Shown here piece by piece: positions 1 to 64,000 of a stretch of 64,000 nt of DNA. Position 1 is the stretch's first letter. Every line of letters starts with the position of its first letter. A program made the translations under genes and the position numbers. The DNA comes from Paraspadella gotoi (taxonomy: Eukaryota > Animalia > Chaetognatha), in NCBI GenBank assembly GCA_051294375.1, contig CM119267.1, forward strand, positions 20,399,476 through 20,463,475. The letters are read 5' to 3'. The notes beneath the pieces are model-generated. The model had not been told where the DNA came from and ran no database searches. It was given only the letters and a program-made list of their open reading frames with translations.

Positions 1-3000
1 GATAAACAAAAAATCAACGGGTCTTCTAAAAAATTAAAAAAAATATATATATATATATATTATACCCGAAAAGAACTTCTGCGAGCATTTTTTTCCGGCC
101 ATGGTGACGCCGTATGAGTGCTTGTCCTCCCCCAATTGCTGGTCGGAATCCATCGTCGAATATCCGACTCGAACGTCGTGGAGGTTAAGTTCCGGACCGC
201 GACCGGCTGGAACGGAAAGGTTTTCTCCTTCTATGTAATTTATTCGTTACGACTTCAACGAATCAAGGAGACCTCACCCGAGGAGGCGTGATTGGCGTCC
301 ATCTTATCGACGACCTTCACTTCGAAGGCGATTTTCCCAGAAGTGACGCCCCAAGTGGCGCGACTGCCCGCGTAGAGATACCCGAACGCTTCAGAGTTAA
401 GAGGCTTGGCACCGAGACCGTCCTGAAGAAGAGACGAGAAAGTGAAGCCATGAAATGAAAATAAGCCCGTGACGTGACCTTCGCCCCCCCGACTCACCTT
501 ATCGACGATGAGGTTAAGGTCGCACAGGTATTTGTCCAAGGTCACGTGGGCGGGGTCCACTTCGTCGGGTTCCTCTTCCGGAATAGGGAGTGGAACGTAA
601 CTGATGATCAGTTTGGAATTTTCAAAAGTCGAGCACATTCAAGAAAAACCCACTCCCAACACCCCTCTAAAAAATACTGACTGATGAGGTTGCGAAATTC
701 GCTCTCTTTCCCTAGATCGCTCTCGCGTTCGTTCTTTGCTCTTCTCCTCGGAATCGCGAGATTTTTCGCGGCTTCGGTCACGCGATCGACTTCTCTCTTT
801 GTCCTGCGAGTGATGTAAAAACCAAAATCTCATTTGCATATTGCAGCAATTGTGTTTGATGTATTCAAGATTCGGTATAGTTTCGATAAATTTAAACAAA
901 TGATACTAACCCCTTCTGGCGAACGACTGCGGTCCCGTTGACGAGAATCCTACCCAAAAAAGAATCAATTAAAATATGTTTCATAATAACATTTATGCAA
1001 AATATAATTTCCGAGTCTCACTTTTTCAGGCGATTTGCTCGTCTTTCCGGGTCGCGACGATTCCGATTTATCCCCCTCTTCCCCCTCGTCCTTTCGCTCC
1101 TTTTCCTCTTCTTTTTCTTTTTCCCCCTCCTCTTCATCTTTTTTCTCCTTTTTGGCGTCGGACTCACGCTCTTGCGACTCTCGCTTCCTTTTTCTATTTT
1201 CGGAGGAACCGCGTTCGCGTCGCTCCTAAACCGTTCCGTAAAAATTATTTGGTAAAATTTCGCCGACCGGGGTTTTAACGTTTTTAAAAAAAATCCCTTA
1301 ATTTATCTATTTTTTAAAAAAAATATTACCTAATAATTAGGCTAATTACCTTAACCCTAAACCCTCTGAAGCCTAACCAGTAACCACCCTTAACCCTCAA
1401 CCACTCTTTAACCCCCCCAAACCCCGGTCGACGAAAGTAAAATTAATCCAATTAATTTTTAAACAAATTAATGAACAAGCAAGTACGTAACACCGGCTTC
1501 GAACCTTAGTAGGAGAAGATTCGGGTGTTGTGAGATCTTTGGAGGTATCTTCCATTGATTCCTCGGTTTCTTCAGTGTTTAAGGGTGCTGTTTCGGCGGC
1601 TGAGAACAATTATTATGATCGTTTACCTTCGCTCGATAAATCTTAAGAAATTTTGGGTCACAAAAACGATATAACTTTATATTCAGCAATCAGCAACTCA
1701 CCTTCGTCTTCGGCCGAGAGATCGTTCTTTTCGGCGCCTTCCACTTTCCCGGCGTCGGTGTATGGGGCCATTTCAACGGGCGTCGTTTCCATGGGTTCCG
1801 GCTCCTCAGTGGCGGGGGCGTCTTGGGTCTCGGTGGCGGAGGCGTCGTCGGTGGCAGCGGCATCGGTTGCCTCGTCGGTTGCCTCGTCGTTAGCGGCGTC
1901 GTTTGCGGCGTCGACGTCTGGAAATGCGTCGACTTCGCGGGCGGCGTCATTGTCAGTACAAGGATCTTGTGACGGATCGGTGCTCTCCTGGGGAACGTTG
2001 AGGGCGTCGTCGGTTTCCTCCAAGATGCTGTCGGATATCAGGGAAGGAGGCTCCACCTAGAATGAGTAAAAAACGGGGAAAATGGTAATATAAAAACAAT
2101 ACTAAATTAATCGTGTCCAAAGAATCTGGAGTCTAAACTCTCTGTAGTTTTTTAACCTGCATCGAAACGTTGGGATCGTCTCTAAGCAAGGCCTCCTCCA
2201 TCTCCTCCGTGGTGTCGCCAACGCCTCCGTTAAGAACCGGCGCCACGCCATCGTCAGGTTGGAGGGCGGCGTCGTCCTCTTCCTCAGTGGCGCCCTCTCC
2301 ATCGTCGCAGTCATCATCGTCGCCCGCATCGTCGACGGCTGAGTTGGACTCGCTGGCGAAAGAGTCGGCGTTGTCCTCGTTGGCTTCGATCCAGGACTGC
2401 AATCGCGCCACGAGAATCTACGAGGAACCCAAAGCGGAAACACAAATTTTAAAGATTACGATCCCAGGCACTGATTCAGTGATTCTCGTTCAGATTATTG
2501 TTATTGTGGCGAAAGTCGAACTTTGACATAACCCTCTCTGTAAAACATTTGTATGTGTACACTTTAAACATATGATCAGATCGGGTATTCCTTATTTTTT
2601 ACTATACATAGCCAAATAGAACGAACATTGCGCGGAAACTAAGGGACTGATTTCCGAAATAAAGCAAACGTTGCTCTCAAAACCGAGTCAAGTTTTTAAA
2701 AAAGGAGAGTGCACTGCGCAAATCTGCAGAAGCATATCTTCAAATCCGATAACCTTACTCAGTTACTGAGGTTGCCTTTCATTTCTCGTCACATATTTAT
2801 TCTTTTTTCTGCCTCTACTATTCTGCAGCGACATCTACTTTTGATTCATCCTCTTCCGCGCAATTGCCGTAGTATTACATATATCATTCATGAAATAGGT
2901 ACAACCAATGTAATCACAAACGGTAGCATCCGATTTCTTTTTCCCTAATTACCGGCTTGGCCCCGCTGACGGGCAGTCCCCTCTCTTTGAGGGCGGCTTT

Positions 3001-61400: not shown

Positions 61401-64000
61401 TCCGCTAGCGGGGCGAGACGCAATCCGGACGGATTGTCCGTTCGGCCCGTCACTCCCTCGGGCCGTTCCAGTACCGCGTAATAGTTTTCGCTCGTCGCCG
61501 TCGCAACGTCACCTACGGGCGCCTCGTCCATTTCGCTTGGCGTCGGGGAGGCGTAAGACGGCGTTATGGCGGCTTCCGAGCTGATGTCCGCCAGGGGAGC
61601 CCGGGGTGTGGCGGGAGAGGCGCAAGCCTCGAAATCAATGAGATCCGTAAAGGGAGGAGGAGGAGAATGATTTGAGGTGGAGGCGTCTGGTTGTTCCGGC
61701 TCGGAATCCGTTGGGTTTTTGTGCTTGGGAGGTAGAGGCGGTAACTGGCATGGGTTAAGGGGGAAGGGAAAACTTCTTTATCAATTTATGGTCATCCATA
61801 AAAAGGATAATCTTTTATCTCATCTCCCACGACCTGAATACGAGGAACGGACCAAGCGTCGTCGTAAATGTCGTCGTCGGATTCAGTTGGGGCGGCAGTG
61901 GGGGCGGCTGGGGCAACGGAGGCATCGGGGGCACTTCTGCTCTGTGACGATCTGTTAAACAAAAGGCAAAAATGATTATTCGGGACATTTCAGAACCCAA
62001 CCTATATATACCTCCAAGTAAAAATGTTATTAACGTTCCCGAGTGTCACCTAGGGGAAGCTCTGGCGTATCCCGGATCGCCCGATGCAAAGTGTGACAAG
62101 GGCATATAATTTTCCTCACCGCCGTCACCACCAGAGTCATTATTCGCTACTCTGCGCCTCCTATCGTTGTCGGTATTTCGACGCGCTACTTCGCCGGAAC
62201 GAGGTCTTGGCAACGGCGGTGGAGAAGCGGTTTCGGCGGGAGAGTTAAAAGTCCGCAACATGACCTCGTCAGCGGTAAGACGATGACTACCTCGACGGGA
62301 ATCGTCGGGGGCGTCGGCGAGGGGCGTTGAGAATCCGGGAGAAGCTGAAAAAGTAGAGAAGATAGGATACAGCGTTCGAGAGAGAGAGAGAGAGAGAGAG
62401 AGAGAGAGAGAGAGAGAGAGAGAGAGGCAAGTTTGACCAAGAATACCTGTGTAAAGATTACCCTCGGATTCGGCGGAGGGAACGGAATTTGTACGGGGGA
62501 ACGCGCCGAGACGACTCTGATCAAGATATAAGAAAAATGGGATAGACGCACAAATTGCAGTGGAAATAGAAAAGATAAATACCCACCCTAGATCTGGGAG
62601 CAGGTACGGGGCGAACTGGGTTTTCCAAGGTGGTCCGCGTCTCGCCAAAATCTCTCCGAAGATCTATTTGGAAACTGACCTGAGTAAAGAACAAATCATT
62701 CTTTTGTGTTGAAAACAAAATCCTTCCTTTCCAAATAAAACCCAACCACTAATATCGAAAATAAAAACCTATGACATACTTGGCCTTGAACGTTCTCATT
62801 GGGATTTTTGTGCTGCAAAAAATAAACGTTGGATGTTGTGCCGGCGCGAACTTTGTCGACCAACTTGCGAACGGGTAGCGAACGGTAACCGAGGAATCGG
62901 GCGAAGGTCGGACGCGTGCTGACGAACTTGTCCTTCACTTCGATCTCCAACATGTCTATCATATTTGTGCGGGGATGAAAATTAGATACAATGTAAGTTA
63001 TGATCAATTGCTTTTTACTCAACAAATCAAAACTTTTTTTCCCAAACCGGATGGAAGCGCTTCAAAGTCGAATTGGTAGCCGAACCAAGACGGGTTCACT
63101 GTGCTGTTTATCACGGTTGTTTTGTGTTCTTGACTGAAATGAATCGAGGAAAAGAAAAACGGTAAGACTAACAAATTGTTTTAAGAGGACTCAATAAATA
63201 TTATTTAGTACTATTTTCGTCTCTCACTCGTGATGATCCATCACGGCGTGCTTTTTGCCCGGTCGCAGGGAAAGTTTGATATATGGATCCGGACAAAAGA
63301 ACATGGTGCGAGTGAGATAACGCGCCTGGCAACGGATTACGTTTTTTGAAAGGAATGTGAGATCACAGAAAGTGAACAAAGAGATGGACGGATTAAGGAC
63401 CTACCTGAAGATCATAGATGACGAAGTGCACCTTTGTGCCATTGTCTTCCGGAGTTTGACTAGAAGTTAAAAGACCTAAGAGCACAAAAAGAATTTTTTT
63501 TTAAATTTTACCAATAAATGTTTTTTTCAAATTGTATCAAAATTCAAGGTTACCTCGCGGAAGGGTAAGTTCCTCTGTCGCTCCTTGAAAATTAGGATCC
63601 TCATCCTCGTCGTCCGTACGCGGGCCATGCGGACTTTTAAGCAAAATATATATATATTAATTTAAAAAGAGACCGGGAAACGTTACAATCTAAAGCTAGG
63701 ACTAAGCTCTGACGAAAAAAGTCAGAGGTTTTTTTAATATATTCTTTGACCGGACAATGTAGATTGATGGCAATATTGCTATTGTTAAGTTTCAAAAAAA
63801 TCCGACCATAAATATAGAAAATATTAACCAAAATCTTCGGAAAATCCACCCCTTCTTTGGAAGATTTTCGCCATATAAGATTTTTTCCGAATCTGACTCC
63901 CGGTTGAAAACTCTTAGAATTCCGATCGTTAGCTCCTCTTTTACTTTTACTTTAAATAAAAATTTCACCAAAATGGACTAATTCACTTTAACATGATCGT
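49438..64000 (-). CDS. HECW1: HECW/NEDL-type E3 ubiquitin ligase (C2, 2 WW, HECT); 5' end lies beyond the window
   Basis: C2 motifs PDPYIKLSL and [17 protein letters not shown] motifs [27 protein letters not shown] and [21 protein letters not shown] motifs [55 protein letters not shown]1 vs HECW2 cannot be resolved. Confidence 0.95.
51677..51915. repeat. Degenerate 22-23-bp minisatellite (about 10 units) in a HECW intron
   Basis: Repeated TTGATGCGATGATAA(C/T)CA(A/T).. units that drift progressively. Confidence 0.88.
51948..51988. repeat. (GA)n microsatellite in a HECW intron
   Basis: Perfect dinucleotide run. Confidence 0.95.
57081..57645. repeat. Tandem array of about 4 copies of a ~143-bp unit inside the foldback element
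   Basis: The unit ..ATCAGGGTG(C/T)(A/G)CTCACATTTT..CTTGAAGG(G/A)TGAATAATCTTTATAAAATCTG..ACCACTATTTA..AACAATGCTGC.. recurs near 57091, 57234, 57378 and 57521. Confidence 0.93.
58570..58615. repeat. (CCGT/CCAT)n tetranucleotide microsatellite
   Basis: CCGTCCATCCGTCCGTCCGT.. run inside the foldback core. Confidence 0.9.
59212..60095. mobile_element. Nested non-autonomous Tc1/mariner-like element (imperfect ~27-bp TIRs, TA flanks)
   Basis: TA|CAGGGTTCGGACTTAAAACTTATCCCC at the left end and GGGGTAAGATTAAGTCCGAACTCAG|TA at the right end; abuts the inner end of the right foldback arm. Confidence 0.7.
62378..62426. repeat. (GA)n microsatellite in a ~100-nt HECW intron
   Basis: Perfect dinucleotide run between the donor near 62446 and the acceptor near 62345. 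Confidence 0.95.

What the first reader, a model, noticed from the sequence alone, without database searches (positions are those of the whole stretch)
1..64000. All 14 genes across 64 kb are co-oriented: candidate giant polycistronic or unidirectional transcription unit in an animal
Seen: 14 functionally unrelated genes lie head-to-tail on the minus strand, with no plus-strand gene and no divergent or convergent pair, and the array runs off both ends of the window. Stop-to-ATG gaps are about 379, 1581, 1124, 613, 670, 685, 418, 198, 1119, 874, 814, 434 and 1384 bp. With independent orientation the chance is 2 x 0.5^14, about 1 in 8000, and these are not tandem paralogues. The plus strand looks A-rich (sense T-rich) through introns and spacers alike. 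Known: SL-trans-spliced operons in nematodes, tunicates, flatworms and chaetognaths usually hold a few genes, whereas very long directional clusters are typical of kinetoplastids. Inference: this animal may transcribe long directional clusters resolved by trans-splicing.
Basis: partly seen in the sequence, partly recalled or inferred. Interest (0 to 1): 0.9.

Follow-up and report, generated by a model that had tools for sequence, protein, structure and literature searches.

The report
Arrow-worm one-way leader-spliced gene array
Fourteen unrelated genes of what is likely an arrow worm all point the same way over 64 kb, and RNA shows the arrow-worm spliced leader on one of them and no untranscribed gap of more than 38 bases across four, so they are likely read as long multi-gene transcripts cut up by leader splicing, which would exceed the 9-11 genes reported for animal operons if the whole run is one unit.

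Summary
Observation confirmed: 14 unrelated genes, all on the minus strand, no plus-strand gene. RNA contigs laid on 5.5 kb are spliced. IER3IP1 starts at an unpaired AG with 19 non-genomic bases that match the 3' end of chaetognath spliced leader SL1 in 19 of 19 letters, so the animal is likely an arrow worm. One spliced contig runs Ig-gene > COLGALT > IER3IP1 through both spacers, and at most 38 bases separate the IER3IP1 contig from the cytohesin acceptor. The run alone is weak evidence, since 1-6 such runs per genome are expected by chance. However, a published 158-kb Spadella BAC table has 14 of 14 oriented non-transposon entries on one strand. Chaetognath operons are known (longest nine genes); long directional clusters were not found in my searches. 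A single promoter is untested, and a fully trypanosome-like genome is unlikely, because only half of P. gotoi genes are trans-spliced.

The parts
1..3045 (-). hnRNP U/SAF-A-like gene, 5' part; runs off the window
   Evidence: SAP domain E 3e-9; exon model
3425..6545 (-). MED4
   Evidence: Pfam Med4 E 2e-7
8127..10763 (-). Cytohesin: CDS 9961-8127, non-coding first exon from 10763, 5' UTR intron 10412-10559
   Evidence: Sec7 and PH hits; spliced RNA contig begins at 10768 with one mismatch near an end of that piece, which fits a leader tail at the AG 10765-10764 (inferred)
10764..10801 (-). Gap of at most 38 nt between the end of the IER3IP1 contig (10802) and the cytohesin acceptor; T-rich, no AATAAA
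   Evidence: tables 2 and 8
10802..11458 (-). IER3IP1/Yos1 mRNA (CDS 11408-11086, intron 11182-11261) carrying chaetognath SL1 at 11458
   Evidence: Yos1 E 4e-14; 19-nt loose end identical to the 3' 19 nt of SL form 1
11459..11460 (-). Trans-splice acceptor AG of IER3IP1; no donor above threshold in the spacer
11461..12021 (-). COLGALT-IER3IP1 spacer, wholly inside one spliced RNA contig
   Evidence: record 3
12022..14102 (-). COLGALT (procollagen galactosyltransferase), one intron
   Evidence: Glyco_transf_25 E 1e-31; homologues; intron joint
14103..14772 (-). Ig-gene-COLGALT spacer, wholly inside the same spliced contig
   Evidence: record 3
14773..18036 (-). Ig-domain single-pass membrane protein
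   Evidence: Ig hits E about 0.002; two introns confirmed by RNA
18722..20528 (-). Ataxin-3
   Evidence: Josephin E 4e-7
20947..21924 (-). RPL23A (ATG 21852); predicted unpaired acceptor at 21924, 127 nt after the TRMT10 stop
   Evidence: Ribosomal_L23; acceptor predicted only
22051..24412 (-). TRMT10-like tRNA methyltransferase
   Evidence: tRNA_m1G_MT E 0.002; exon model
25479..34317 (-). SLK/STK10 kinase with long C-terminal extension
   Evidence: Pkinase and PKK; relative P0137 colinear to the stop
35192..37176 (-). RUN-domain protein (ATG 37167); predicted unpaired acceptor at 37176
   Evidence: RUN E 2e-10; acceptor predicted only
37982..43080 (-). CSE1L/exportin-2
   Evidence: Cse1 E 2e-12; exon model
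43515..48053 (-). BTB-domain protein (start codon uncertain)
   Evidence: BTB E 3.5e-8
49438..64000 (-). HECW-type WW/HECT ubiquitin ligase; start not fixed, probably near or beyond the window end
   Evidence: HECT and WW; exon model

Best explanation
This is a one-way cluster of at least 14 mostly housekeeping genes in what is likely an arrow worm, in which RNA polymerase likely reads on from gene to gene and each downstream mRNA is likely freed by splicing the host leader onto an AG just past the previous gene's 3' end; the leader is shown on IER3IP1, and the run likely consists of one or a few long operons, probably with some internal promoters. Shown: co-orientation, cis-splicing, SL1 at IER3IP1, RNA-contig cover of two whole spacers and a gap of at most 38 nt at a third. 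Inferred: the leader at cytohesin, single precursor molecules, extension to the other ten junctions, and the phylum.
For: (1) Run X1 is spliced RNA of this animal: 5 of its 6 listed joints are CT..AC (minus-strand GT-AG introns), with 3 substitutions and 1 one-base deletion in 5.5 kb. (2) The IER3IP1 contig has 19 loose bases at 11458, directly after a genomic AG. They equal the 3' 19 nt of SL form 1 of Spadella/Flaccisagitta (Table 3 of PMC2481426). The best match in the window has 3 mismatches, and chance is about 1e-8. (3) Record 3 (7,356 nt) runs spliced from the Ig gene through the 670-nt spacer, COLGALT and the 613-nt spacer, and 20 nt into the IER3IP1 exon, so an unspliced path across the SL acceptor also exists. 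(4) The IER3IP1 contig ends at 10802 and the cytohesin acceptor is at 10765-10764; the cytohesin piece begins at 10768 with one mismatch near an end, as a leader tail would give. (5) Bin depths equal exon-only cover, so no contig was laid on three introns while the spacers are covered. (6) X1 holds 0.69 of sampled words of 8001-17900; expected 0.43 for CDS only and 0.68 for all non-intron sequence. (7) 3,758 nt of record 3 lie beyond view. The rest of the Ig gene plus the next spacer takes at most about 2,011 nt; the remainder fits ataxin-3, its spacer and part of RPL23A (by length only). (8) S. cephaloptera BAC 35A21, Table S5: 14 of 14 oriented non-transposon rows are +, over 99-119,826, and all 4 minus rows are transposons; p = 5e-4 to 2e-3 after merging a probably split gene and dropping the pair the BAC was shown for. 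(9) No promoter-like motif shared by the 13 spacers stood out.
Against: The leader was seen directly at 1 of 3 gene starts laid and inferred at a second. At COLGALT the contig runs straight through, and none of the 6 loose ends shown (20 not shown) is a leader there. A contig across genes does not show a single transcript: overlapping 3' UTRs and outrons can join in assembly, and short introns can be lost as bubbles if DNA is present. One run, one study. Only 3 of 13 junctions were laid. Six stop-to-ATG gaps are 800-1,580 nt, room enough for a promoter. hnRNP U, CSE1L, SLK and BTB lack a strong unpaired acceptor after their last upstream ATG, and TRMT10 and CSE1L have strong donors upstream. 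Runs of 14 are expected 1.3-5.8 times per genome without any special architecture, and this window was picked for its run. The BAC table lists 24 rows of predictions numbered g1-g41 (only those with SwissProt hits, plus one unidentified row without strand), so unlisted genes could break the run. Protein searches named no chaetognath: the phylum rests on the leader alone.
Confidence: 0.6

Rival explanations
1. All 14 or more genes are one promoter-driven unit with no internal starts, part of a trypanosome-like arrangement of the housekeeping portion of the genome.
For: 3 of 3 tested junctions are operon-like and record 3 probably reaches RPL23A; the BAC run spans about 120 kb, across transposon-filled gaps; the sense skew never changes sign in spacers.
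Against: P. gotoi: about half the genes trans-spliced, 18% operonic, longest operon nine genes, and trans-spliced genes still have ATAC peaks, only fewer. Several spacers here lack a good unpaired acceptor. 178 predicted cis-introns make a precursor over 64 kb, unlike kinetoplastid units.
Confidence: 0.2
2. An ordinary chaetognath operon of about 4-6 genes (RPL23A to cytohesin) flanked by separately promoted genes that are co-oriented by chance.
For: RNA covers only this part; 1-6 runs of 14 per genome are expected by chance, and the window was selected; 4-6 genes is within the published range.
Against: The BAC, not chosen for a long run, shows 11 of 11 further same-strand pairs (p 5e-4 to 2e-3). 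The RUN gene, outside that block, has a strong unpaired acceptor 9 nt before its ATG.
Confidence: 0.13
3. Every gene has its own promoter and a short outron removed by the leader; neighbouring UTRs overlap, and the assembler fused them.
For: Contigs cannot show single molecules; many P. gotoi trans-spliced genes are not operonic.
Against: At most 38 nt lie between the IER3IP1 contig end and the cytohesin acceptor, and 127 nt between the TRMT10 stop and the predicted RPL23A acceptor; the S. cephaloptera operon has a 3-nt gap. This reading does not explain the co-orientation.
Confidence: 0.07

Closest known systems
Chaetognath SL-resolved operons (Spadella cephaloptera RPS14-PCNA, PMC2481426; Paraspadella gotoi, PMC12460157)
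   Same: Same leader (SL form 1), housekeeping genes including a ribosomal protein, very short distance from 3' end to acceptor.
   Different: Published operons are defined by gaps under 250 bp and reach nine genes; here 14 or more genes over 64 kb or more are co-oriented. The P. gotoi main text has 0 occurrences of 'strand' and 'orientation'. The 2008 paper notes only that several other BAC genes are clustered and share orientation.
Kinetoplastid directional gene clusters (directons of about 30 genes; bioRxiv 10.64898/2026.07.29.740908)
   Same: Long same-strand run of unrelated genes, mRNAs freed by a spliced leader.
   Different: Intron-rich genes (178 predicted introns), leader shown on one gene only, about half of genes not trans-spliced in P. 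gotoi, run length known only as 14 or more. That preprint gives about 2 genes per directon for 525 metazoan genomes and does not mention chaetognaths.
Tunicate and flatworm operons (Ciona, Oikopleura up to 11 genes, PMC4122922; Macrostomum up to 9, PMC8629364)
   Same: One leader type serving operonic and non-operonic genes; tiny intercistronic gaps.
   Different: Different leader sequence; mostly two-gene units; the maxima read are below 14.

Membership tests
Chaetognath SL-resolved operon | A chaetognath spliced leader joined at an AG acceptor of a member gene | tested here: met
   19 of 19 nt match to SL form 1 at 11458
Chaetognath SL-resolved operon | Co-oriented neighbours whose transcripts lie under 250 bp apart (criterion of PMC12460157) | tested here: met
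Chaetognath SL-resolved operon | One precursor molecule spans several genes | tested here: inconclusive
   A spliced contig spans three genes, but contigs cannot show single molecules
Chaetognath SL-resolved operon | Downstream genes lack their own promoter | not testable with these tools
   No CAGE, ATAC or raw reads; no shared spacer motif found
Kinetoplastid-type polycistronic directional cluster | Tens to hundreds of genes per same-strand run, genome-wide | tested here: inconclusive
   14 or more here, 13-14 listed in the Spadella BAC; no genome held
Kinetoplastid-type polycistronic directional cluster | Every mRNA receives the leader | tested here: inconclusive
   1 shown, 1 inferred, 1 not seen of 3 starts; about half of genes in P. 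gotoi
Kinetoplastid-type polycistronic directional cluster | Near-absence of cis-introns (recalled feature) | tested here: not met
   178 predicted introns, median 80 nt; 5 confirmed by RNA
Kinetoplastid-type polycistronic directional cluster | Initiation and termination confined to chromatin-marked cluster ends | not testable with these tools
   Both ends lie outside the window
Nematode SL2-type operon | A dedicated leader for downstream genes | not testable with these tools
   One leader observed; PMC12460157 reports no operon-specific leader in P. gotoi

The most novel reading that the evidence does not exclude
Chaetognaths keep their housekeeping genes in trypanosome-like directional clusters: runs of tens of intron-rich genes over 100 kb or more, transcribed from few promoters and resolved by the spliced leader, beside a conventionally regulated developmental gene set. 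The 250-bp operon definition would have cut these clusters into fragments. This would be the first animal phylum with such an architecture.
Probability: 0.35. Interest if true: 0.9.

Novelty: new variant of a known kind. Interest (0 to 1): 0.72.

Why it matters
Animal genes are described as near-randomly oriented (about 2 genes per same-strand run in 525 genomes), and animal operons top out at 9-11 genes in the papers read. Two chaetognath loci with runs of 13-14 or more suggest that an animal lineage has moved part-way to the kinetoplastid arrangement. This would give a metazoan test case for why trans-splicing spreads, how gene-specific promoters are lost, and how dozens of cis-introns, polyadenylation and trans-splicing are handled on one very long precursor. 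It can be tested at once with the public P. gotoi assembly, Iso-Seq and ATAC data.

Tried and rejected
No whole genome is held, so genome-wide run lengths could not be computed. Runs X2 and X3 of the same study: 0 contigs laid, no proof of absence. No listed holder is on record as RNA; the RNA nature of X1 comes from its splice joints. The metagenome scan with a COLGALT alignment gave 24 loci, the best 49% identical, none a close relative, so there is no gene-order comparison. COLGALT, SLK and RPL23A searches found close relatives only in unnamed marine sources (68-74% for COLGALT and SLK) and no named chaetognath; the species is undetermined. My gene finder over-joins neighbours (2 models, 10), so gene limits were set by hand from Pfam hits and homology. 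Its whole-strand plus predictions were shadows of minus exons and were rejected after the masked test. A hidden plus-strand gene in the 5.5-kb HECW intron was rejected. A 15th gene after SLK was rejected. Of the 6 loose ends shown, five (255 nt, at 13765-14848) and one GA..AC joint with a 21-nt side were set aside as probably other transcripts matching simple GAC/AAC repeats. Raw GTAAG/GTGAG counts are not strand-biased (33 vs 56, 54 vs 61) and were not used. The spacer motif search found only A/T runs. The P. gotoi supplementary spreadsheet with the operon list was too large to read and may bear on novelty. The scan's own notes held nothing on this genome or on look-alike stretches; word searches gave a dinoflagellate array, two-gene pairs and mobile elements in other genomes, which did not move my reading.
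Full report
Observation. The window holds 14 protein-coding genes, all on the minus strand: hnRNP U-like (runs off the left end), MED4, cytohesin, IER3IP1, COLGALT, an Ig-domain membrane protein, ataxin-3, RPL23A, TRMT10-like, SLK, a RUN-domain protein, CSE1L, a BTB protein and a HECW ligase. 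Each has a Pfam hit on a minus-strand ORF. They are intron-rich (178 predicted introns, median 80 nt). The SLK gap is 1066 rather than 1119, because a relative's SLK aligns to a stop at 25479. None of 55 plus-strand ORFs tested hits Pfam, and a window-trained model finds no credible plus-strand gene in 20,962 nt of spacers and long introns. Rfam and tRNA scans are empty.

Chance. The 1-in-8000 figure holds per window. But a 22,000-gene genome gives about 1.3 runs of 14 or more with random orientation, and about 5.8 if the P. gotoi share of candidate-operon pairs is forced to the same strand. As the window was chosen for its run, the run alone proves little. No genome was available for a genome-wide count.

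RNA. One run (X1) holds the region. It was laid on 9770-15300, that is 5.5 of 64 kb and 3 of 13 junctions. It is spliced RNA of the same animal: five CT..AC joints, three substitutions and one single-base deletion. The IER3IP1 contig begins at 11458, right after a genomic AG, with 19 non-genomic bases. These equal the last 19 bases of chaetognath SL form 1 in Table 3 of PMC2481426. The window has no match better than 3 mismatches, and chance is about 1e-8. No donor above threshold lies in that spacer. This shows leader trans-splicing and points to Chaetognatha. The closest COLGALT and SLK relatives are unnamed marine sequences at 68-74%; the best named COLGALT hits are gastropods at 53-58%. 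No protein search named a chaetognath, so the phylum rests on the leader.

Linkage. A 7,356-nt spliced contig runs from the Ig gene through the 670-nt spacer, COLGALT and the 613-nt spacer to 20 nt inside the IER3IP1 exon, so both a leader path and a genomic path exist at that acceptor. The IER3IP1 contig ends at 10802. The cytohesin contig begins at 10768, five bases before the exon that follows the AG at 10765-10764, with one mismatch near an end; this fits a leader tail but is inferred. Bin depths show no contig cover on three introns or on the 33 nt between these two contigs. X1 holds 0.69 of the words of 8001-17900, against 0.43 expected for coding sequence alone and 0.68 for all non-intron sequence. 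By length, the unseen 3,758 nt of the long contig would reach through ataxin-3 into RPL23A; this was not observed. Limits: contigs do not show single molecules, one run was used, no leader was among the 6 loose ends shown for COLGALT (20 not shown), and 32 further pieces were not shown. Sequence alone gives good unpaired acceptors for RPL23A (127 nt after the TRMT10 stop) and the RUN gene. It gives weak or none for hnRNP U, CSE1L, SLK and BTB, and strong upstream donors for TRMT10 and CSE1L.

A second locus. Table S5 of PMC2481426 lists 24 rows for the 158-kb S. cephaloptera BAC 35A21. I set aside 8 transposon rows (4 plus, 4 minus), 1 tyrosine recombinase (plus) and 1 row without strand. The remaining 14 of 14 are plus, from 99 to 119,826. 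Merging two probable halves of one gene and dropping the RPS14-PCNA pair for which the BAC was shown leaves 11 of 11 same-strand pairs, p = 5e-4 (random) to 2e-3 (operon-adjusted). Predictions without a SwissProt hit are not listed and could break the run. The authors remarked that several BAC genes share orientation and could be operonic, but the passages read do not describe a long cluster.

Mechanism. Most likely, polymerase II runs through successive genes; cis-introns are removed, each upstream mRNA gets its 3' end, and the leader is spliced to an AG a short way on, capping the next mRNA. Shown steps: co-orientation, cis-splicing, leader addition at IER3IP1, near-absence of untranscribed spacer over four genes. 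Inferred steps: precursor molecules, extension to ten further junctions, the number of promoters. I put 0.6 on one or a few long operons with some internal starts, 0.2 on a single unit, 0.13 on a short operon plus chance, and 0.07 on separate promoters throughout.

Comparison. Chaetognath trans-splicing and operons are published. P. gotoi has about half its genes trans-spliced, 18% operonic under a 250-bp rule, a longest operon of nine genes and no operon-specific leader. Tunicate operons reach 11 genes and Macrostomum operons nine. Trypanosomatid directons average about 30 genes and animal ones about 2. The locus meets the tested criteria of a chaetognath operon. It works like a kinetoplastid cluster in orientation and processing, but fails the intron-poor feature and is not filed as one. 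I found no description of long directional clusters in chaetognaths in searches, in the P. gotoi main text ('strand' 0, 'orientation' 0) or in its three readable supplements. Its spreadsheet supplement could not be read, and subscription journals are not covered.

What I saw of each paper. PMC12460157: outline, sections 5, 10 and 26, passages including the operon methods, term search of three supplement PDFs. PMC2481426: section 12, passages of 13, all of supplement 2. 10.64898/2026.07.29.740908: part 1 of section 6 and passages. PMC7986045, 10.1101/642082, PMC4122922, PMC8629364, PMC2566580 and 10.64898/2026.06.08.730799: passages only. The intron-poor nature of kinetoplastid genes is recalled.

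Verdict. Real; a new variant of a known kind. The operon mechanism is known for the phylum. The scale (14 or more genes, repeated at a second locus) is the new and directly testable part. Interest 0.72.

Noticed in passing
window 56221-61027: Transposon-like element of about 4.8 kb in the 5.5-kb HECW intron: inverted arms of about 0.9 kb (82-96% complementary in blocks), a 143-nt tandem array near 57075-57645, no ORF over 100 aa, no Pfam hit in the ORFs tested, no sense-strand T skew.
   Followed up: partly
window 31584-31649, 51950-51987, 62379-62426: The three long dinucleotide repeats are all intronic and all read (CT)n on the sense strand; the first forms the pyrimidine tract directly before an acceptor.
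   Followed up: no
window 25479-27706: SLK has a long low-complexity C-terminal extension after the coiled-coil, conserved in short motifs in an unnamed relative, P0137.
   Followed up: partly
window 51670-51901: 22-nt minisatellite in a HECW intron.
   Followed up: no
window 11880-11914 and 16168-16202: A 35-nt element, 89% alike, in the COLGALT 3' region and in an Ig-gene intron.
   Followed up: no
window 12022-14102: COLGALT has a single intron, whereas most neighbours have 4-38 predicted.
   Followed up: no
window spacers: [quoted passage not shown]
   Followed up: no
window 24767-24794: An acceptor at 24794 followed 15 nt later by a strong donor at 24779 suggests a tiny non-coding first exon of TRMT10; at cytohesin the acceptor at 10763 likewise overlaps a donor-like GT.
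   Followed up: no
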